DNA of 64,000 nt from Eledone cirrhosa (taxonomy: Eukaryota): the NCBI GenBank assembly GCA_964016885.1, contig OZ024741.1, forward strand, positions 207,514,001 to 207,578,000, given 5' to 3'. Below the pieces are notes generated by a model. That model searched no databases, was not told the origin of the DNA, and saw nothing but the letters and a program-made list of their open reading frames with translations. The position numbers were made by a program, and so were the translations under genes. This document shows positions 4,226-54,400 of this stretch, in pieces (position 1 is the stretch's first letter; each line of letters opens with the position of its first letter).

Positions 4226-7195
4226 GTAATAATAATAAATTTGAAGACTAAAATCCAAAGAGGGCTCGATAAGGATAAATATATATGAAATATATAAGAA
4301 CCGTAGAGCAAATATTTATTAAAATAACAGATTAAAGTTTAAGCAAAGAATCGCTGCTTTCACCCTTAACGGTATCTTCTGAAACTAAAAAAATCAATCT
4401 GTGAACGCAGACTAAATATTTCGAAAAACGTTGCAACCGAAGGAAGACAGGACGACGATACTTTGGTTCGTGGAAACGTTACCTGGCAAAGAACTAAAAA
4501 AAAAAAACGTCATTATTTGGAACGGTGAAAACAATTACACGCAAAGACAAAAACCACGTTCATGGTATAAATGAAGTCGTAGACTAATATTCTATTAGGT
4601 GGTGTGTGGAAACGTTCACTGGCAATGAACGGAAAAAACGAAGATAATACCTCATTATGTGGACCGCTGAGAACAATTACACGCAAAGACAAAACCACGT
4701 TTACGGTATAACTGAAGTCGTAGACTAAAATTCTATTTAGGAAACCGAATGATTCTCGGAGTTAAGAATAATGTAAATAAATTACAGAGATTATTGAAAT
4801 CAACAATAATTAAATATATAGATGCACGCATCCATATACGTACATACACATGCATACGCGGAAACATCCGCCATGGGTATGCAAATAGAGGCACGTACAC
4901 AAAACTACGCGCACACATACAAAAACCCACGCAAAGCCTGTACCCGCAACATACGAACGTATACAGCAAATACACATAAAACATATAAAAATATATATAT
5001 ATAAAAAAAAATATATATATATATATACATGTGTGTGTGTGTATACATATAATTATATAAACGTATATAAATATACACACATAAATACGTATATAAAGCG
5101 CGCACACACGCTCCCACATGTAAATACACATATGTTCGCTAAACATAAGTTAACCAAAACACTAAGTACACATATACGCACACCCTACATACGTGCAAAC
5201 CCGCATACACAGACAATCGCAAAACTCACGTATACACATAACCATATACACATGTACCAATATATATAATATAATATATACGCCTATAAGAAATTCAAGC
5301 AAATATACGTACGAGAAAGTATACGTACCTTGACAAAACATGCAGGTAATATATACTTACCTTTACAAATAAGTAATGTTATAGACATAAAATATACTTA
5401 GCTACCACATCAAGACGTAAATCATCCGCGTATAGTTCGTACTATCCGTTGGGGTATAAAGTGGGGCTGTATTACAGGAAAGTTTGTGCAATTTATGTTT
5501 ACAAGCCGAAATTGCCTCAGATTTTTTGTTTAGGATGTGGTCATTGGCGTAGAGTATTTCCAGGGCTTCAGCGGCGAGAGATCACATGGTATTTTATTTC
5601 CGTTATACAATCTAGCCCTAGCTAGGATATCCCAGTGATCTCCCAGTGTATATTCGGTGTAGTTGGCTTTTAGACTCCAGATATAAGCTGAAAGTGACGT
5701 CATATTCGTTCTTAAAGGGTTAAGAAAAGAATGGGTATGCATGTAAAGACGCTGCTTCAATCTATTAGCGGTTAACCCTATGTAGGCCCTACGGGACGTG
5801 GGTGTCTCAACCTTACATTTGTGGTTGAGAGGCATTTCCCGGATAGGAGGCATTCAACCCGATTCCTACAATTACAGTTAGTACTAGCTACAGGGTTGCA
5901 CGTGTTTAGCTAAATGTGAAGCAGTGATGTTATGCGCACGGTTAGGGGTTGTAGCGTAAGAAATTTTAATGGTATTTCTATTAAAAATGTTATTATATTT
6001 ATGTGCTGGTGGGGTGGGGGGCATGCTTCATAATAAGGGAGAGAAAGATCTTAGCTAATGGTGTGGCCACCTCCATATTATATGGTGGGTTATACCATAT
6101 AATGTGTCGGGATCTATTTTTCCTAGGTCTATGCTCATACTCGGTATATGCTACCTTATCGACAAATCCACTCCGAGCAAGAGCTTCATTGTAATATGTG
6201 GAATGGTCGGTGAAAATATGCTCGTTTGTAGATAGACGGGAAAGCCTCAAAGAAAGGTTTCTTATCAGGTTCTTGGTTATGCTGGCAGGATGGTTAGAAT
6301 ACTTGCTTATGTAATTAAGCGTATCATTCGCCTTTCTATACGGGTAGTACAAGCCATTCGACAAATTGAGGGTAACGTCGAGGTAATTAACGACCGAGAA
6401 GTTGGTCTCAACTTGTATGGAGAGGTTGCAGCCTTTAAAGAAGACTATGAGTTCTTTTCTGAACCTGTCGCAAGGGCGTAGGCCGCACTTTGTCATGGTC
6501 AAAAGAGCGTCATGGCGGTACAAACCACCGCCCACCTTGGAGAATTCATCCTTGATAGAGACAAGAGGGAAAAGGCCGATAAGATCAGTAACCTCCGCAG
6601 AATCGCTGGTGCCCATACTCTCATCGATCACCACGAAAATATTGTTCCACAGTACAAGGGGGGCCAAGCTTCTAATTTCATGTATCATTCTATCTAAAAT
6701 ACTTTTACTAAGTCTACCTAAATCGGATTTCGTAGGGTTAATAAGCCGAATAGAAGGGTTGTTCGGGAAATTGGATTTGTGATCCTTCAAGGTAAAGTAG
6801 GGAGAAATAGGGTCCAGAGGTTCACTCCGGTCCAGGATGCTGCGATCAGAGGTGATTTTAAACCCAGCATCGTTGATGTCATTAATGACACTCCGATTAG
6901 TTTTACGGTAATCCTTAGTTACATCATTATGTACCAGTTGATGGTAAGTACTGCGCTCCACTTGATATAGATTGCCAGTTTTGTCGGAGTGGACGTGCAC
7001 GGCATTAGAATCCTTAATAGAACGAATTCTATTCTTCAGGTCCTACTGGAAGGAATTGCTCCTATTCCGAAATTTGATACACCGTATGAGTTCCAAGACA
7101 TCATTTTCGAAGGGTAGCAATGCTGGGTTACTCGGAGAGTTATTGTAGGTTTTAAACCCAAATTTATCTTGTTTGTTGTCCGCTCTTCCCTGATT
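4226..7195 (-). mobile_element. Naiad-type PLE family A, degenerate copy (RT, GIY-YIG, pLTR)
   Basis: ORFs 5999-7000 (DKTGNLY, TLKDHK, RLINPTKSDLG, YLDVTL) and 5530-5853 (YIGLT), with frameshifts and an internal deletion. Confidence 0.92.
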
Positions 7196-8860: not shown

Positions 8861-10780
8861 AATTATAAATGAAATTAGAAGCTTGGTCCCTCTTGCACTG
8901 TGGAACAATTCTTTCGCGGTGATTGATTGATTCAACGGCATATGCAACAAGGAACATTGCAGTTTTATCCAATTCGAAATCAATAATTACTACTCCTCCA
9001 TCACTTTACCACTCCTTCTCAGAGCAATCAATTTCGCTAAAACGCTCGCGGTGTTTAAGGATTTCGAAGTTGATGTCACCCTCAATGCCCGTAAGTCGGT
9101 GATTAATTTCGACGACTCTATTTGGATTAAAAAATCTAATAGTACCCCATTCGATGTAAGTATGGGCGCCAGCGATTCGGCGGAGGTTACTGATCTTATC
9201 GGCCTTTTCCTTCTTTTCTCTATCAAGGAAGAATTCCCCAACGTGGGCGGTGGTTTGTACCGTGATGACGGTCTTTTGACCGTGACAAAGTGCGGCCCAC
9301 GCGCTTGCGATAGGTTCAGAAAAGAACTCACAGCCTTCTTTAAAGGCTTCAACCTCTCCATACAGGTTGAGGCCAACCTTTCGGTCGTTAATTACCTCGA
9401 CGTTACCCTCAATTTGTCGAATGGCTTGTACCAGCCGTATAGAAAGCCGAATGATATGCTTAATTACATAAGCAAACATTTTAACCATCCTGCCAGCATA
9501 ACCAAGAATCTGGTAAGAAACGTTTCTTTGAGGCTTTCCCGTCTATCTACAAACGAGCATATTTTCACCGACCATTCCACATATTGCAATGAAGCTCTTG
9601 CTCGGTGTGGATTTGTCGATAAGCTAGCATATACCAAGTATGAGCATAGACCTAGGAAAAATAGATCCCGACACATTATATGGTATAACCCACCATATAA
9701 TATGGAGGTGGCTACACCATTAGCTAAGATCTTTCTCTCCCTTATTATGAAGCATGCCCCCCACCCCACCAGCACATAAATATAATAATATTTTTAATAG
9801 AAATACCATTAAAATTTCTTACTCTACGACTCCTAACATTGCACATAACATCACTGCTTCAAATTTAGCTAAATTACCTAGTCGTAGGAACACGTGCAAC
9901 CCTGTAGCTACTAACTGTAATTGTAGGAATCGGGTTGACTGCCCCCTATCCGGGAAATGCCTCTCTAGTAACATTTTCTACAAATATAAGGTTGAGACAC
10001 CCACGTTCCGTAGGGCCTACATAGGGTTAACCGCCAATAGATTGAAGCAGCGTCTTTACATGCATACCCATTCTTTTCTTAACCCTTTAAGAAGGAATAT
10101 GACGTCACTTTCAGCTTATATCTGGAGTCTAAATGACAACCACACCCAATATACACCGGGAGATCACTGGGAGATCCTAGCTAGGGCTAGATCGGATAAC
10201 GGAAATAAAAGACCATGTGACCTCTGCGCCGCTGAAGCCCTGGAAATACTCTACGCCAATGACCACATCTTAAACAAGAAATCTGAGGCAATTTCGGCTT
10301 GTAAACATAAATTGCACAAAATTTTCCTGTATTACAGCCCCACTCTATACCCCAACGGATAGTACGAACTATACGCGGATGATTTACGTCTTGATGTGGT
10401 AGCTAAGTATATTTTATGTCTATAACATTACCTATTTTTATAGGTAAGTATATATTACCTGTATGTTTTGTGAAGGAACGTATACTTTCTCGTACATATA
10501 TTTGCTTGTATTTGTTATAGGCGTATATATTATATTATATATACTGGTACATGTGTATATGGTTATGTGTACACGTGAGTTTTGCGTTTGTGTGTGTATG
10601 CGGATTTGCACGTATGTAGGGTGTGCGTATATGTGTACTTCGTGTTTTGGTAGACGTACGTTTAGCGAACATATGTGTATTTACATGTGGGTGTGTGTGT
10701 GTGTGCGTTATATACGTATTTATGTGTGTATATTTATATACGTTTATAGAATTATATGTATACGCGCACGAACACACATG

Positions 10781-10929: not shown

Positions 10930-12405
10930 ATTTCTTTTATTTGCCACTAGGGCATCAAAAGTGGGACAAGTACAAAGGGGGGAGTTTACACAAAAAGGCG
11001 TCCTCAATAAGGAGGAGGCAATAACAAAATATAAAAATAAAATAAGATATAACAAAAAATAAAATTTTTAACAAAATCCTCAATAGAGAGGAGGCGCCTT
11101 GGGGGGTCGCACACACCCCCGAAAAAAGTGTGCAACCCTTCTCCTCAGGAGCACAGAGAAGGGGTGCTCCCTTGGTCTTTCATCTTCCTCACCTATAGTC
11201 TGATGTAGAGTGAAGGCCCATTCACACGGGCCATTCTCGCCACTTTCACCCATCTTTCATAGAAACGGCTGGGGTGCAGCACCTCTCTCTCCATCCTGAT
11301 CCTTCTTCCGAAATGATATCGGAAGAAACGGACCAGTTGTTGGCCAGAGAGAAAGGTGCCCGACCTCAGTCCTTTCAGACGCGTCCACCATACAACCTCT
11401 TTCGCCATGGCTATTACGCACAGAAACACCGCCTCTGCTTCATCTTTGAAGGGGGGAGGCGGCTTGATCATTACAATAGACTCGGTGGTCAACCGGATCG
11501 GTCCCACCCTTGACAGCAGTTGTTCGACATAGCCCCACAGATCGGCTACGCCCGAGCAGTGTACTAATGCGTGTGCAACGGTTTCCTCGTCGCACACGCA
11601 TCTGGGACAGATCTTTTTGGCGGGGTCCCTACCCGGGCGCCCGTGTCTGTAGAGCCTTTCTCGAACGGGTAAAGCCCCTCGGTAGCACTGCCAGGCCAGG
11701 GACTTCTGGAAGTTGTCCATAGGTCCCGGGCTGAATGTCCTACCGAAAAGGCTGGCCAGTTCGTCCTCCTCCATGTCTAGGGCTTCTCCGAGGGCGTCGT
11801 CGCACCTGCTGCGTACCAGCCCTCTATAGAATGTTGCGGTGGAGTCTCCACTGATAACCGGATCCGCCTGCCAGAGGGCGGTGAGCGCCTGGGCACACTC
11901 AGTGTGCCAGGCGCCCAGTTTTCTCGGTCTTTGCTTGACCCAGGATTGCAGCTCGGTGAGTGAGACGAGTCTGGGAAAGGTTCGTCTCACAAACGAGGCC
12001 CACACCGGTTGTCCGGTGAGGAATACGTAGAGGTGCCGTAGCCTTAATGCGTGTTTACGCATCATTAGCCACGGCATCCCCAGCCCTCCTTTCGAAGGGT
12101 GTTGACAGCAGATGGATCTCCTCACCATAGGAGCCCGCCTCTTCCAAAGGAATTGGAAGAGCGCGCGCTCCATCTTGGTGAGGGTTTCCCTTGGGCAGGG
12201 CACTACGGTCAGGCGGTAGTAGATGACGGACGCTATGTAGGTGTTCGCCACCTCCGCCCGACCTTTCAGGGATAGTTTGCAACTGGCCCACTTCTGGGTC
12301 AGTGCAAACACTCTGTTCGTAACCTCCGCCCAGTTTTTCTCCACCTGGAGGTCCGGTCCGAACCAGACCCCGAGCAACTTCACCGGGCCCTCCGTCCAGC
12401 GTCCG
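10930..12405 (-). mobile_element. 5'-truncated L1/Tx1-clade LINE (RT C-terminus, zf-RVT, 3' UTR)
   Basis: Uninterrupted 396-aa frame (KLLGVWFG, LSLKGR, GGLG, CPRC...ETVAHALVHC). GC-rich, with AATAAA at its 3' end and (GATA)n on both flanks. Confidence 0.9.
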
Positions 12406-12456
12406 ATAGATAGATAGATAGATATACACGGGTGTGTATGCTTGTGTATAGAAGAT

Positions 12457-25968: not shown

Positions 25969-28900
25969 ATTTAATGTATAATAAACAATACAATATAATT
26001 ACCTCATTACCAGAGGTTTCCCGAATAAGACGAATACAAGAAACGTCCTCATTCGTTCGTCAGACAAAGCAATTTAAAACATAGTGAAATATTTGAAAAA
26101 TCTCCTCAAGAAAGGCAAAACTTTAAAGGGCAAAAAAAATATATATATATATATAAATAAAAGTAATGCAAGAGATATATAAAAATAAAATAAGGAAATA
26201 TAGTAAGGGTATGTGTATAAATGTGTGTATATGCACCTACAAATGTACATATGTGTGTTTGTACAAATACATGTGTATAGTGAAAAAATGTGTGCGTAAG
26301 TACATACATGAGGGCAAGCATACCAGTGAATGTGTGACCACAAATACGTATATAATATATGTTGAAAAAAGAAATTGTAAGATAGTTAGCGTACATACAG
26401 ACTCAGGGACTAAGGATTGAAATATATACACATACAAGTATGAAAGCACGCGTATAAACACACACACACGCGCAACCACATACATGCATGTGATATATAC
26501 AGGGAAGGGAGTGTATCAGTCAAAGCAGTGTCAGGCTGAAGGTCGATAAATATATAAAAATATAAAATATGATAAATATAAAAAATGGATAAATAGCTCT
26601 TCCGTAGTACATTGGTTTAATAATATTAAAGATAAAAATAGTTCTAGATTCACCCAATTTGACATTGTAGACTTCTACCCGTCTATTACTCACCCTCTTT
26701 TAACGAAAGCATTAAATTTCGCTAGAAAGTTTATCAATATTTCTGATATTGAAGAGAATGTCACTTTACTATTTACTAATAATGACACTTGGGTAAAAAA
26801 AAAACTAACCCAGAGAACCCATTCGATGTCTCAATGGGTTCTTTTGACAGTGCTGACGTGTGTGTCAGCCTATTCCTCCTACACACACTTAAAGAGAAAT
26901 TCCCTAACCATACCTTTGGGCTTTATCGCGACGATGGTCTAATAATTTCCCATACCACTATAGGCCATAACTTAGATAGATTCAGGAAAGACTTAATAAA
27001 AACCTTCGCTAGTTTTAATCTTAAAATTACCATTGACACTAACCTTTCTAATGTTAATTTTCTAGATATAAACCTAGATCTGCCTACGGCTTCTTATAAA
27101 CCCAATGAAAATTTAAAATATATAAATAAAGGCTCTTGCCATCCTCCTATAGTTTTTAAAAATCTTATTCCTAATATTAGCCGTAGGATCTCCACCCTCT
27201 TTTCCTCAGAAGCTATTTTCAATAAGGCATCCCCTACTATAATAAAGCCCTTCAAAATAGCGGATTTAGCGAACCGATTAAGTACATACCCAACAATACT
27301 AACCCCTTTAAACATAATAATAGGAAAAGAAAAATAATCTGGTTCACACCCCCTACACTTTAGCAGTTAAAACTAATGTAGGCAAAAAATTCCTAGAGCT
27401 CTTAGATAAACATTTTCCTAGAATATAGATACTATAAGATCTTCAATAGAAACTGTGTCAAAATCAGCTACTCCTGCGGTCCCCCTATTAAATCTTATAT
27501 CCTCAATAAGAAAATATCCAGAGAACATCAAAATTGCTCCTGTAGAGTCAAAAGTGAATGCCCATTACAAGGTAAATGCAACACCAAAGCCATTGTATAT
27601 GCGGCTAAAGTGACAACCACCAGCAAAAACCTACCAGCCACCAGCCACCAGCGAACAATATGTGGGTATGACACAAGACAAATTCAAAACGCGTTATTTC
27701 TCATATGTCGCATCTTTCCGACATCCTGAAAAAAGATTTACAACAGCTTTGGCTAGCAGAATATGGGATTTGAAAGACCAAGGTATCCAATATAAATTAG
27801 ATTGGTCAATTTTGAACCAATCTAAAGAATATGCAAGAGGAACAAGAAGATGCGCACTCTGCATAAGTGAAAAATATTGGATTTTACAGAACCTTAAATC
27901 ACCAAAAAACCTTCTTAAATGCAAAAACAGAACTTTTCACCAGTTGCCCACACATGAAATCACACTTGCTTTCCAGCTCATATAAACTTAACTCACTTTC
28001 AGATAGTTATCCTCCATAAACTCTTGTTCTTCACTTTCCTTAACTTACTTTCTTTACAGACTTCTCTTTCTGATTTACTTTTATTTTTATTTTTATTTTA
28101 ATTTTTATTTTTATTTTTATTTTTATTTTTATTTTTTTTATTTTTATTTTTATTTTTATTTTTATTTTTATTTTTATTTTTATTTTTATTTTTATTTTTA
28201 TTTTTATTTTTATTTTTATTTTTATTTTTATTTTTATTTTTATTTTTATTTTTATTTTTATTTTTATTTTTATTTTTATTTTTATTTTTATTTTTATTTT
28301 TATTTTTATTTTTATTTTTATTTTTATTTTTATTTTTATTTTTATTTTTATTTTTATTTTTACTTCATACCCACCAGTGATTCACTTACTTTATATCTTC
28401 ACAATTTTACATATTTTACTTCCCCCTTTTCTTTCACTACCTGATTTGACTGTCACTTGTGTTTTCAACTCCAGATATATTCTGTTGTCCCTCAGCCGCT
28501 TTTATGTATGTTTACTTGCGTATAATTTGTACTCATTTATTCATACGGCTGGTTTTTATATTGTATGTATGCGTGTAAGTGTGCATATGTGTGTATACGT
28601 ATTTGCATATGTATACGAATACATTCGTATGTGAGCGTGTATGTGTATATGTGTGTTTTTATATCTGTTTTTTGCATACTTATATATATGTGTGTGTGTG
28701 TGTGTATATATATATGTGTGTGTGTATATATATATGTATATATATATATATGATCGCGTGCGTGCGTGTGATTAGATGTACATGTATGTATATATATATG
28801 TGCTTCGTGTGTATGTATGCGCACTTTTGTATGTATGTACGCATGTATGTGCTTTTGTCTGTACGTGGTCACACATTCACTGATATGCTTGCCCTCACGT

Positions 28901-44216: not shown

Positions 44217-44222
<6 letters not shown>
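43982..44222. repeat. Fold-back insertion containing an HHR
   Basis: Arms 43982-44091 and 44110-44222. Confidence 0.88.
44049..44110 (-). ncRNA. Type I hammerhead ribozyme
   Basis: ttttat-CTGATGA-GAACACA...TGTTTTC-GAAA-TGCGCA-TA-ataaaa, with palindromic stem III. Confidence 0.85.
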
Positions 44223-44295
<73 letters not shown>

Positions 44296-45309
44296 GAAAT
44301 GGCTGTGTAGTTTCTATTTAAGGTAACTTAGCAAGAACGGGGGGCGGGGAGTTTCCCTCATCAGTTGTCTACTGGGGGTCTCGGATATTTCTACGCTTTA
44401 AATACAAGATATCTACCGCCCAGGGCGTTCAATAACTGGATAAGTTATTGGGAAAATGGAAGGAGGGAAGGAAAGCAATGGGGAAGAAAAGAGAAAATAT
44501 TAACAAAACAGCGGAAAAAATCAACAAACCGAGCAATATGCGAATAGGAAATCCAAGACCACTCGATAAGAGAACATAAGTTCAAGACTGAGTGGTCGAG
44601 AGGAGACACACGTCCGATCGCCGCAGTTCTAAGTGAAAAGAAAACTGCTAAACGGTCAGGCGAGGAGGTGAAAGTGAGAGGGAGAAAGGGAGACGAAGAA
44701 AGTGGGGTAAGAGTAGATAGGGAGAAATGAATGGGAAGAAAGAGGGGTAGGGGTGAGAGTAGAAAGTAGCAAAATAGGTAGGTAGAAGAGGAGAGAAGAA
44801 TGGTCACAGCGAAAAACATGATGAAATATATGAAGAATAGAAATGGCTGTGTAGTTGCTTTTTAAGGTAACTTAAAATGTAGTGGGAATACGAAGAAAGC
44901 AAGAACGGGGGGAGGGGTGTTTTCCTCAACAGTTGTCTACTGGGTCTCGGATATTTCTACGCTTTAAGGACAAGATATCTACCGCCCAGGGCGTTCAATA
45001 TATATGTGTGTGTGTGTGTGTGTGTTATTAAGTTAACAATGAAAATAAAAAGAACAAAGTCAAGTTACTTTCTAACTTTGTTTTTATTTTGTTGTTTTTA
45101 TTTTTATTGTTAATTTAATACCTAATATTTGACTGTGTATCTAAAGAATTAATTCAGCGAAACACAGAACTTCTCTATGGATTTTACAAAATTACATTGA
45201 GTCCTATCTACGATACGGACCCTACCACCAGAGGCAGACCAGACTGAAAAAAGAATATATATATATATAGATTGTTGAACGTATATATATATAAGAATAT
45301 ATATATATA

Positions 45310-46046
45310 TAGATTGTTGAACGTATATACTTACCTTATGCATATTAACGGCTGAGTAGCCCAATTTGTCAGTGTTGAACAAACGAGCAACGGTGGTTGC
45401 TAGACACTACGGCTTAATACGGGATGTTTATTTACAAACACACCGAGCATTATAATAAATGTTCGGTGAATCCATACGTGCATATATATATGTGTGCATG
45501 TATGTATATATATATATACATACTACTGTACGTCGGTATACATATATGTATGTACGTGTACATACTTATATTTAAGTAACAGCCGTACTAAGAGTGGGAA
45601 ATGAAATATCGTTTCATTTTTTCCGTTTATCGTTTTCGGTGCACCCGGCCGATTAACCCACTCGATATGCAAATTGGGCTACTCAGCCGTTAATATGCAT
45701 AAGGTAAGTATATACGTTCAACAATCTGGCAGGAAGGTATACGTTGCTGACGATAGCTAACAAGCTTGAAACTAGTACAGCGTTCCTTTGTCAGTGTTGA
45801 ACAAACGAGCAACGGTGGTTGCTAGACACTACGGCTTAATACGGGATGTTTGTTTACAAACACACCGAGCATTATAATAAATGTTCGGTGAATCCATACG
45901 TGCATATATATATGTGTGCATGTATGTATATATATATATACATACTACTGTACGTCGGTATACATATATGTATGTACGTGTACATACTTATATTTAAGTA
46001 ACAGCCGTACTAAGAGTGGGAAATGAAATATCGTTTCATTTTTTCC

Positions 46047-46052
<6 letters not shown>
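45310..46052 (+). repeat. 422-bp HHR unit (about 1.6 copies) with a short inverted arm, homologue of the 466-bp unit
   Basis: tttgtcagtgttgaac at 45365 and 45787. Inverted piece 45310-45367. The 3' end joins (TA)n. Confidence 0.9.
45741..45783 (+). ncRNA. Minimal type I hammerhead ribozyme
   Basis: acgttg-CTGACGA-tagctaacaagctt-GAAA-CTAG-TA-cagcgt. Confidence 0.9.
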
Positions 46053-46091
<39 letters not shown>

Positions 46092-51461: not shown

Positions 51462-54400
51462 TCAGAGCAAGCACGTGGGTGTATAGACACACATATACGA
51501 GACAGGTTGTTGGCCAAGGAAAAAAAAAAGTTTATATTAGTTCAACTCTGTTTCTCTCCTTCCACACACTACTTGTTGTTCATGTCCATAAAGTCTCCAT
51601 CACAACTTGATCTTTTTAACATCTCCAGAAAATGAGATTTTTTTTATTTTTATTTTAACTGTTACATTTTTTTGTGATATTTTCTTTATAAGATAAGACC
51701 AGTAAACAATTAAATGCAAATGAACAAATTATAGATGAGATGAGGAATGTTACTTGCCATATTGAGCATAGCGAGATGGCCTGTGCACACGTCGATCGGA
51801 TCTAGTGCTTGTTGTTGGCATAGAGTTCGGATTGCCGGTGGATGGGAGCACTGGTGTTGGGTTAACTTGATTTGATGATGAGGGTTCATCCAAATCTACA
51901 TGAGCTTTTTTTAACCGGTCGGCACTGACAGCATCGCTCCTTCCATTAATGTCCAAAATGAAATGTTTGGATGCCCTTTTGGGTACTTGGTAGGGCCCCG
52001 AGTACGGTGGTTGCAAAGGAGCCCTGATAGTGTCCCGTCTGACAAAAACGTGTTCATTGCTGTAGGTCGGATGGAACTTGCGTAGTGATGCTTTGAGGGT
52101 GCGGGCAACCGATGGCAGGTTTGCCATATAGGTCCGCAGGAGATGGATATAGTTCATTGGATCTGCGGGGTATTTAGACTCAGGAGCAATCATTTGCCCG
52201 GGTAATACCAATGTCGTGCCATAAACCAGCTTATCCGGCGTAACACCAAGTCCTTCTTTTACGGTGGAGCGAATTCCAAGAAGGATGAAGAGTAAGATCT
52301 CCAACCAGTTGCTGTTGTTGACATAGGCTCTGAGAGCCGATTTTAATTGCCGGTGGAAACGTTCCACCATACCATTAGCTGCAGGGTGATAGGCTGTTGT
52401 ACGTGTTCGACTACAACTTAGGAGGCGTGTCAATTCTTGAAAAATGTTTGATTCGAACTGGCCGCCTCTGTTCGTTGTTATGGTAGAAGGTGTGCCATAA
52501 CGCGAAATCCAATGCTGTAGTAGCGCCTTGGCAATAGATTCGGTTGTAGTGTCGGAAAGAGGAATGGCCTCAGGCCACCGGGAGAATCTGTCCACACAGG
52601 TCAAAAGGTGAGTGCAACCCTGAGAAGGAGGCAGTGGTCCGACGATGTCGATGTGTATGTGTTGGGAACGTGCACCCGGTGTTGCGAAGATTGAATTTTC
52701 GCCTAAGGACACTGAACGCAACGTCTGGCCCATTCCCTGACATCCTTGTTCACACCAATCCAAACAAACCGCGCTGTTAATAATTTCAGGGTAGAGTTGG
52801 TTCCAGGATGCGATAGGTTGTGCAGCGCAGAAAAAACCGAACGTCGATGCTGTAGGGGCACATATGGGCGCGCGTGACCCGTAGACACATCACACCAAAT
52901 ACCATTAGAAGAAAAGGGTAGAGGGAGGAGTTTGAAAGACAAGTAAGAAGAAGATGGAGAATTTCAAAGTTTGAGGAGCTCCCCATCCGTCTGTTGAGCG
53001 GCAGCGATGTCTCTGAGGCTGATGGAAAAAGAGGTATGCAATGCACCCAGGTGTGCACGAGAAAGGGCGTCAGCTGCAGAGATGTCTGAACCTTTAATGT
53101 GGCGAATATCCGTAACATGTGGGTATAGCAGAATGGTTCACCGCCGTGAGGAGGACTGTTGTGGGTTTCCTACTGCCTGACACCAGATATGATGGTATAA
53201 CGCTAACCTCAGCTCCGGTGTCCACCAGAAAACAAACACCGGTTGATCGGTCGCTAATGTGAAACAAGCGGTTAGGTTTGGAAGAGCCAGGTGTAGTTAC
53301 CGCCGTTACTGCCTGACCACGTTGTTTCCCGGAACATAACGGAAATCCCTCCTAAAAGAACAGGGCAATAGGCATTTACGAGCCCTTTCGCCGAATTTAC
53401 GGTGGTAATAGCACATGGGATCGGTCGGCCGGGTACGACTCGGGTCTCACGGGCGCTGGTGGGAAGCGCATCGAGTTGAGCTGGCGTTGCTGCGTGATTG
53501 TAGCTGCAGTTTAGCCATAAGAGCGTTCAGTTGCTCGGCCTGTTCTTCCACCCGAGCCTCGAGCGCCACCACCTCCGAAACAGAAGACGAGGAAGGGGAA
53601 GAATTAGAAAATGAGGAAGAAAGAGGGGAAGAAAAAGAGCTTACTATTGGATGTCTGTGTGTCTCCTGGGTCACGAGTAACAATGGTGCTGCCACCTCTT
53701 TGATCCTATCGGCTGAATCCGCCAGCCCTCGATTGGGGTGGATACTTCACTGGCCGTCAAAATACTGCGAGTGGCTGGTGGCAGTTTTTGTAAGAACAGC
53801 TGTTTTAAGCTGGTCGGCTCCATGGTGTTTTCTCCCAATTAGCCGTCTTAGAAACTGTGACGGTTTCTTGTCGCCTAACTCCTCTGAATATAGCAGCCGA
53901 TTAATCCGTTGCTGCTGCGAGACGGATGTCCACTTTATAGGCTCGGACCTAAATGTAGCATGAGAATATGTGCCTGGTGGTGCTGTAAGCAAATCCCTGA
54001 TCTGCTGCAGGCTCTCGGGAGGAAGCGCCCCGACAACATGGGAAGTTTTAGTCCTGTCTGCCGAAATATGGTGTGTCTCAAATTGGGCCTCGATGAATCT
54101 GAACCAAATGATAGGATCATGAGGCCAGAATGTCGGTATCCGCAGGGATATTGCTGCTTGTACGGACGATGATGCTGGTGATTGTTCCATATTGCTGGGT
54201 GATTATCGTTGGTAATTATAGATGGCTCAGAAAGCTGCGTGTTCTAATGTCGGGTCAGCAATTGAAGGGAATCAAAGTTAGTAGTTATCGTAAGAAGAAA
54301 TAACACGAATAGCTGGTTTACTTTTGATATAAAATTTACTCCAGTCAAAAAGAGCAACAAATATGTTACCATGAGTCGCAAATGTTATTTTGTTGTTGAT

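What the first reader, a model, noticed from the sequence alone, without database searches (positions are those of the whole stretch)
45310..46052. Diverged 422-bp sister of the 466-bp unit shows compensatory base changes, so the whole RNA fold appears to be under selection
Seen: same order of motifs, and identical HHR stems II and III. Stem I swaps a G-U for a U-G (acggtg/catcgt versus acgttg/cagcgt). A long-range helix outside the ribozyme covaries at two positions: TATGGCA/TGCCATA (36774-80/36977-83) versus TACGGCT/AGCCGTA (45830-36/46003-09). Local hairpins are kept despite sequence change (cggt..accg versus cggt..gccg, gtttg-ttta-caaac, aaatgaaa..tttcattt), and agcgacg..cgccgct is replaced by ccgagcatt..aatgttcgg. 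Inference: this is a family of structured non-coding RNAs with functional elements beyond the HHR, such as an RT-recognition structure.
Basis: partly seen in the sequence, partly recalled or inferred. Interest (0 to 1): 0.82.

Follow-up and report, generated by a model that had tools for sequence, protein, structure and literature searches.

The report
Ribozyme retroelement selected for its fold
This is one copy of a very abundant non-coding jumping repeat with a predicted self-cutting RNA motif; base pairs outside the ribozyme were kept while the family spread but decay at random in inserted copies, so the fold likely serves copying by a Penelope-type enzyme rather than the host.

Summary
The 422-bp unit and the 466-bp array belong to one non-LTR retrozyme family with about 28,600 hammerhead cores in this 3-Gb animal genome, inserted in (TA)n.

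Across 101 loci and nine subfamilies, the long-range helix, a second helix and a hairpin show compensatory changes. Folding one subfamily alone gave 7 compensated pairs against 0.9 expected and 5 broken against 21.8 (0 of 5000 simulations). Changes private to single insertions break pairs (69 of 92) and hit paired and unpaired sites equally. Selection therefore acts on the transposing RNA, not on resident copies. 'Whole fold' is overstated: one hairpin is deleted in the 422 type, and several pairs fail.

Copies end at two fixed points about 60 nt apart, one per arm in 20 of 20 classifiable head-to-head insertions. This matches the Penelope 'tail'. One strand of each covarying long helix lies in that tail. 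Two junctions join the unit directly to a Hydra-clade Penelope element, the likely mobiliser.

Transcription, cleavage and circles are untested. The scan noted the two-armed pattern before on other DNA. Verdict: a new member of a known kind that works as a natural structure-function map.

The parts
45311..45368 (-). inverted 5' arm of the 422-type insertion (58 bp); ends in (TA)n at a non-standard point
45365..45628 (+). 5'-truncated first unit (starts 9 nt after the cleavage site, so it has no ribozyme)
45629..46050 (+). complete 422-bp unit ending at the 'long' end, followed by (TA)n 46050-46091
45741..45783 (+). type I hammerhead: stem I 45741-46/45778-83, core 45747-77, minimal stem III with palindromic loop; predicted cut after 45777
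   Evidence: cleavage not tested
45716..45802 (+). long helix extending stem I (45716-31 with 45789-802)
45830..45836 (+). 5' strand of the long-range helix (also 45408-14 in the first unit)
46003..46009 (+). 3' strand of the long-range helix, inside the tail (also 45581-87)
45865..45888 (+). hairpin with conserved A/U-rich loop; 6 of 8 pairs covary
45985..46000 (+). hairpin whose loop holds the 'short' end (inferred RT start 1)
45991..46050 (+). tail of about 60 nt between the short and long ends; holds the long-range helix 3' strand, a strand of the junction-spanning helix (46014-20) and a terminal hairpin (46021-41)
45592..45663 (+). helix 45592-98 with 45657-63 that spans the long end, so it needs a multimer or circle; one compensatory pair
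36498..39297 (+). sister subfamily: six identical 466-bp units, ending at the short end in (TA)n
36257..36500 (-). inverted arm of the 466 array, ending at the long end in (TA)n

Best explanation
This is a copy of a non-coding hammerhead retrozyme family (about 28,600 cores in the genome, inserted in TA microsatellites) whose helices outside the ribozyme were kept by compensatory change among the spreading subfamilies, likely because a borrowed Hydra-clade Penelope reverse transcriptase needs that fold to start copying. SHOWN: the copy number, the nine-step subfamily ladder, pair-keeping shared changes against pair-breaking private ones, two fixed 3' ends about 60 nt apart with one of each in head-to-head insertions, 5' breakpoints that ignore the ribozyme cut site, and two direct junctions with a Hydra element. 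INFERRED: arrays are transcribed; the hammerheads cut multimers and a host ligase circularises monomers; the Penelope endonuclease nicks both strands of (TA)n; each 3' end primes on the sense RNA at one of the two sites; both cDNAs run through the unit junction, around a circle or along an uncut multimer, and join head to head. The long-range helix and the junction-spanning helix would hold the tail domain that presents the two start sites. Only master copies with an intact fold spread, and the host need not use the RNA.
For: Copy numbers: 13,428 exact cores, 28,570 loose with 10 in the control, 32,465 exact 3' motifs. RNAalifold recovers the long-range helix unprompted; 97.9% of its 189 cells pair. 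Across loci one pair is C-G in 49, U-A in 14 and mismatched in 1; the other is A-U 29, U-A 29, G.U 4, mismatched 3. Tree-aware null: 7 compensated against 0.9, 5 broken against 21.8, 0 of 5000. Private changes break 69 of 92 pairs, at 0.87% (paired) against 0.79% (other) per site. Shared new states are canonical in 17 of 25, Fisher p 1.1e-4. Shared states are G.U 9 to A.C 2, private ones 18 to 20, which points to the sense RNA. Ends: 20 of 25 simple two-armed loci are long+short, 5 have an unclassified arm, 0 have two alike. The same holds in 6 of 6 arrays of a 310-bp family and in the 4 Hydra-A loci of 7 where both arms could be classed. PMC11167929 shows in vitro that a Penelope protein cuts and extends both strands and starts at two internal RNA sites that bound the tail. 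Chimeras L047/L258 and L044 join the unit to a Hydra-B coding region with no TA run and no left-over remainder, and each again has one long and one short end. 1 of 96 5' breakpoints lies within 5 nt of the cut site. One array alternates A-B-A-B-A with 17 differences.
Against: Transcription, cleavage, circles and protein binding are all untested. Each compensated pair rests on one or two events, and R-scape was not available. The number of pairs with a two-sided change in the long-range helix (2) does not beat column shuffles (446 of 500). Several pairs and one hairpin are not kept. The G.U excess over private changes is weak (p 0.08). Sampling is mostly the first 51 Mb of one contig plus 30 loci picked for a core variant. 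Only 2 of 105 loci are chimeras, and insertion followed by deletion could mimic them; the Hydra-B long end was read by eye. No autonomous element with this unit as its terminal repeat was found. The finding's own inverted arm ends at neither standard site. In PMC11167929 ribozyme cleavage was dispensable for insertion in vitro, so circles may not be needed.
Confidence: 0.72

Rival explanations
1. The element and its mobility are as described, but the extra helices are selected only for RNA stability or to keep the hammerhead correctly folded, not for recognition by the reverse transcriptase.
For: Retrozyme circles are predicted to be stable and highly self-paired (PMC7229834). The best-covarying hairpin lies about 100 nt from the tail. 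G.U-tolerant conservation is spread over the whole unit.
Against: Strands of both long helices lie in the tail, and one helix spans the long end. The 310-bp family has no alignable sequence outside the ribozyme, yet is predicted to have the same two helices in the same relation to its two ends (pair probabilities 0.5-1.0 and 0.7-0.9).
Confidence: 0.17
2. The matched changes are mutational artefacts: template switching or palindrome repair during reverse transcription or replication copies one arm onto the other without any selection.
For: The unit is rich in inverted repeats, and Penelope insertion involves template jumps. Hairpin arms are close together. For one long-range pair no one-sided intermediate was seen.
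Against: Copying would give perfect Watson-Crick pairs, yet G.U states persist in dozens of loci (48 and 38 in stem I, 76 in the hairpin) while shared A.C states are rare. Real one-sided states exist for stem I (A-U in 16 loci, U.U in 3) and the junction helix (G.U in 2). The long-range strands are 170-260 nt apart.
Confidence: 0.06
3. The unit is the terminal repeat of an autonomous Penelope element not yet found; the arrays are truncated debris of it, and the structure is selected in the parent.
For: Xenopus retrozymes are related to Penelope terminal repeats (10.64898/2026.07.22.740005). The insertions look exactly like Penelope insertions.
Against: No screened locus showed an ORF running through its stop codon into the unit. 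The 3' ends of the Hydra and Neptune/Nematis-like lineages inspected are unrelated, and Hydra-B has its own different hammerhead. Pure arrays of identical units are common and young.
Confidence: 0.05

Closest known systems
Metazoan non-LTR retrozymes (Cervera and de la Pena 2020, PMC7229834: passages and parts 2 and 4 of 6 read, supplement unreadable; Li, Clavereau and Pollet 2026, 10.64898/2026.07.22.740005: parts 1-3 of 5 read)
   Same: Non-coding tandem units of a few hundred bases, each with a type I hammerhead with a weak stem III and palindromic loop; low GC; thousands of dispersed copies; co-occurs with Penelope-like elements.
   Different: Head-to-head two-armed arrays, two fixed ends, (TA)n targeting, covariation outside the ribozyme and chimeras with a named partner are not described in the parts read. 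RNA circles are shown there but not here.
Endonuclease-bearing Penelope-like elements, Hydra clade (Craig et al. 2021, PMC8557442: passages, section 11 and supplement rows; Arkhipova et al. 2013, PMC3846280: passages)
   Same: Partial tandems, an inverted 5'-truncated copy, a tail at one end only, (TA)n targets; terminal repeats can act in cis for mobilisation in trans. A Hydra family is already listed for an octopus.
   Different: No ORF; the tail is about 60 nt rather than 30-40; not similar in sequence to the local Hydra 3' ends. The 2013 paper explains head-to-head repeats by self-priming on an antisense template, whereas the data here favour two target-primed starts on the sense RNA.
Poseidon element of the green anole, in vitro (Frangieh et al. 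2024, PMC11167929: parts 1-2 of 4 read)
   Same: Two internal RT start sites bound the tail, initiation is at a stem-loop, both DNA strands are cut and extended, and targets are AT-rich.
   Different: There the start site did not differ between strands and the RNA determinant lies in the ORF. Here the two arms of one insertion always used different sites in the classifiable cases, and the determinant is a non-coding fold with natural compensatory variants.

Membership tests
non-LTR retrozyme | type I hammerhead in each tandem unit | tested here: met
   6 of 6 units of the 466 array and many arrays elsewhere; the finding's own locus has only one core. Rfam gave no match at gathering score
non-LTR retrozyme | non-coding unit of a few hundred bases, low GC, no LTR structure | tested here: met
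   monomers 420-538 nt; no ORF of 150 aa or more at the locus; GC about 0.33-0.36
non-LTR retrozyme | dispersed high-copy family | tested here: met
   28,570 cores against 10 in the control
non-LTR retrozyme | self-cleavage of the transcript | not testable with these tools
   core is intact; stem III is minimal and may need a dimer (recalled, not tested)
non-LTR retrozyme | expression as linear and circular monomer RNA | tested here: inconclusive
   no usable RNA data; indirect signs are read-through of the cut site, a helix across the unit junction and one alternating array
Penelope-mobilised element | inverted truncated arm and a tail at one end only | tested here: met
   20 of 20 classifiable two-armed loci are long+short
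Penelope-mobilised element | target-site duplication | tested here: inconclusive
   hidden in (TA)n; one copy nested in a Hydra-B element has a 9-bp duplication, read by eye (L077)
autonomous Penelope-like element | own RT and GIY-YIG ORF | tested here: not met
   no ORF in the unit; no ORF contiguous through its stop codon in the loci screened
Hydra clade (candidate mobiliser) | RWK-like and DKT motifs, CxCx5C linker, CxxC and CxH in the endonuclease, (TA)n targets | tested here: met
   read by eye in 610-760 aa open frames against the description in PMC8557442; no tree built; Hydra-B has a 3' hammerhead, none was found in Hydra-A
host-functional structured ncRNA | purifying selection on resident copies | tested here: not met
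   private changes are as frequent in stems as elsewhere and break 69 of 92 pairs; a few co-opted copies cannot be excluded

The most novel reading that the evidence does not exclude
The two covarying helices form the RNA signal that docks a dimeric Penelope reverse transcriptase so that each nicked DNA strand primes at its own site on one circular RNA. The same topology recurs in an unrelated-looking 310-nt family, so it would be a general cis-element for twin-primed rolling-circle retrotransposition. The chimeras name Hydra-B as the enzyme.
Probability: 0.35. Interest if true: 0.75.

Novelty: new member of a known kind. Interest (0 to 1): 0.52.

Why it matters
Two questions are open in the papers read: how animal retrozymes are copied, and what RNA feature fixes the two Penelope start sites. 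This family offers a candidate enzyme lineage (from chimeric insertions), two start sites mapped to within a few bases, and a ladder of natural compensatory variants that says which helices to mutate first. It also shows a general caution. Covariation among repeat copies can be real and still reflect selection for the element's own spread, and the contrast between shared and private changes tells the two apart.

Tried and rejected
A DNA search of the own genome with the unit found nothing because common words are skipped; patterns were used instead. Rfam at gathering score: 0 matches. Pfam: 0 families for four Penelope fragments.

Sequencing runs: no RNA holder was listed. The three runs laid were contigs of unknown kind; two held a few near-identical low-depth pieces and were not used as independent evidence.

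The first alignment was unusable at its ends and was rebuilt. The uncurated test kept only 20 of 40 and 21 of 43 variable pairs, partly through register shifts and a duplicated tail. Pairs variable on both sides were still kept in 9 of 18 against 11% and 6 of 12 against 14%. One search left out four register-shifted regions and one of the nine subfamilies, and treated sampled subfamilies as ancestors.

An apparent U.G intermediate in the long-range helix was a majority-row artefact (absent from real loci) and was removed: 18 of 26 became 17 of 25. L077 looked chimeric but is a nested insertion. The count of 29 loci near Hydra-B is inflated by a SINE inside one reference. Plus-versus-minus folding energy favours the ribozyme strand here but not in the 310 family, so it is not used.

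No parent with this terminal repeat was found among the Penelope lineages inspected; the search was not exhaustive. No covariance model was built and no R-scape test was run. Further 5' junctions that may join the unit to other elements were not examined, so other mobilisers remain open.

Literature searches listed no paper on this family, on covariation outside the ribozyme of animal retrozymes, or on retrozyme-Penelope chimeras. Most hits were seen only as listings. The library lacks most subscription papers, and the supplement of PMC7229834 could not be read.

Full report
OBSERVATION. The four 7-mers of the long-range helix are at the stated coordinates and differ by two compensatory pairs. 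The 422 period is exact, and the two units are 76% identical. The window holds seven hammerhead cores, six in the 466 array and one at 45747-45777, with none expected by chance. The finding's locus is 1.6 units plus a 58-bp inverted arm between TA runs. With one ribozyme it could not release a monomer by itself (inference).

WHAT IT IS. The genome is 3.0 Gb. I take the host for an octopus-like animal from the recalled look of its repeats; this was not tested. The core occurs 13,428 times exactly and 28,570 times with a free stem II, control 10. A motif near the 3' end occurs 32,465 times. Monomers are 420-538 nt, differing mainly in a central TA tract. This fits the metazoan non-LTR retrozymes of PMC7229834 and 10.64898/2026.07.22.740005. 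Of 101 loci aligned, 99 were clustered and 78 fell into nine subfamilies of three or more. These form a ladder with the 422 and 466 types at its two ends, about 26% apart, while members differ from their subfamily by a median of 0.3-2.2%. Sampling was mostly the first 51 Mb of one contig plus 30 loci picked for a core variant.

IS THE COVARIATION REAL? RNAalifold on 27 real copies recovers the long-range helix, an extended stem I, a helix across the unit junction and the hairpins; 11 of 118 pairs have two-sided changes. The long-range helix pairs in 97.9% of 189 cells, with 16 two-sided cells against 5.1 in shuffles; the count of such pairs (2) is not above shuffles. A 90-pair structure gives 97.8% and 12 such pairs. 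Those shuffles ignore relatedness, so I ran two better tests.

First, I folded one subfamily alone and scattered the 70 observed substitutions along the ladder. This gave 7 compensated pairs against 0.9 and 5 broken against 21.8 (0 of 5000), with similar results from the two end subfamilies. Four register-shifted regions and one subfamily were left out. Second, changes private to one insertion strike stems and other sites alike (0.87% and 0.79%) and break 69 of 92 pairs. States shared by a subfamily are canonical in 17 of 25 after removing one artefact (p 1.1e-4). Shared states are G.U 9 to A.C 2; private ones are 18 to 20. So structure is selected in the copies that spread, probably on the ribozyme strand, and is not maintained once inserted.

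LIMITS OF 'WHOLE FOLD'. One hairpin is deleted in 19-20 loci of the 422 type, one pair is mismatched in 41 loci, and the end pair of the stem I extension is mostly unpaired. One closing helix is 84% paired. The 'replaced' hairpin is homologous and is the best-covarying element. Each compensation is one or two events, so significance pair by pair is unproven.

WHAT THE FOLD MAY BE FOR. Arms end at two fixed points followed by (TA)n: a short end in the loop of the hairpin at 45985-46000 and a long end at 46050. A stricter pass found 60 short, 49 long and 32 other. Of 25 loci with one end per strand, 20 were long+short, 5 had an unclassified arm and none had two alike; nine more complex loci were set aside. 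The rule also holds in 6 of 6 arrays of a 310-bp family and in the four Hydra-A loci of seven with both arms classed.

A tail at one end of inverted Penelope repeats is known (PMC3846280; PMC8557442). PMC11167929 showed that it lies between two internal RT start sites. Here the tail holds the 3' strand of the long-range helix and the 5' strand of a helix that closes across the long end; both are predicted at 0.86-0.99 in the circular 422 unit. The 310-bp family aligns only at the ribozyme but is predicted to place two helices the same way. Only 1 of 96 5' breakpoints lies within 5 nt of the cut site, against about 4 if uniform by my arithmetic, in a sample biased to intact cores. So the template is a circle or an uncut multimer.

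WHO MOVES IT. The genome is rich in Penelope elements that match the Hydra description, a clade already listed for an octopus. None inspected has this unit as its 3' end. Two of 105 loci join the unit directly to Hydra-B coding sequence. In L047/L258 an inverted retrozyme arm with the long end is followed by retrozyme running into Hydra-B, which continues to its own short end with no retrozyme remainder. I expected that short end before fetching the stretch. L044 is the mirror case. Template switching by one enzyme is the simplest reading; insertion plus deletion is possible.

MECHANISM. Shown: family, ladder, selective pattern, two ends, one end per arm, chimeras. Inferred: transcription, cleavage and circularisation; nicking of both strands of (TA)n by a Hydra-B protein; priming of each strand at a different site on the sense RNA; copying through the unit junction; head-to-head joining. 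That the helices are the recognition signal is the least tested step.

NOVELTY. The class is known and the Penelope link is proposed in print. My searches listed no paper with covariation outside the ribozyme, chimeras or the one-end-per-arm rule for animal retrozymes; an unread supplement may bear on this. A sequence look-up of earlier scan notes found nothing. A word look-up showed that other agents noted the two-armed, two-site pattern on the 310-bp family and in other genomes. I had reached that reading earlier, and these notes are not independent support. Verdict: a real observation on a new member of a known kind, useful as a ready-made test of how Penelope enzymes choose their start sites. 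Interest 0.52.

Noticed in passing
window 5999-7042 (-), 8931-10362 (+), 26786-27990 (+): Broken copies of Hydra-clade Penelope elements. One family (Hydra-A) is very abundant, has 690-710 aa open frames elsewhere and a 1.1-kb 3' UTR with two ends about 85 nt apart, but showed no canonical hammerhead in my scan, although the paper calls them universal in Hydra.
   Followed up: partly
window 43910-44264: A miniature head-to-head insertion of the Hydra-B-type 3' end with its own hammerhead (44104, minus strand), 1.2 kb from the finding.
   Followed up: partly
window 374 (-), 2392, 4007, 12610 (-), 26063 (-), 29132, 49042 (-), 51306; also 39594, 40724: Several other hammerhead-like cores of unrelated families, some with a stem III made of TA repeats.
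   Followed up: no
L184-L221 (G000 C1): A 310-bp hammerhead family (15,659 pattern matches, 95 in the control) with a homologous core, two compensatory changes in stem II, the same long+short rule and a similar predicted helix order.
   Followed up: partly
L078: Array alternating A-B-A-B-A with 17 differences between A and B, as expected from copying a dimeric circle or from duplication of a pair.
   Followed up: partly
several loci: Some 5' junctions of the unit abut sequence that by eye resembles the inverted 3' end of other retroelements, which could be further mixed two-armed insertions.
   Followed up: no
L266, L267: A Neptune- or Nematis-like Penelope element with a different hammerhead also ends in (TA)n, tail to tail with retrozyme copies.
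   Followed up: partly
window 45258-45329: A roughly 38-bp stretch with the end of the inverted arm and its TA run is duplicated; this arm ends at neither standard site.
   Followed up: no
window 51750-54202 (-), 11193-12455 (-): LTR-retrotransposon integrase and gag remnants, and a LINE fragment.
   Followed up: no
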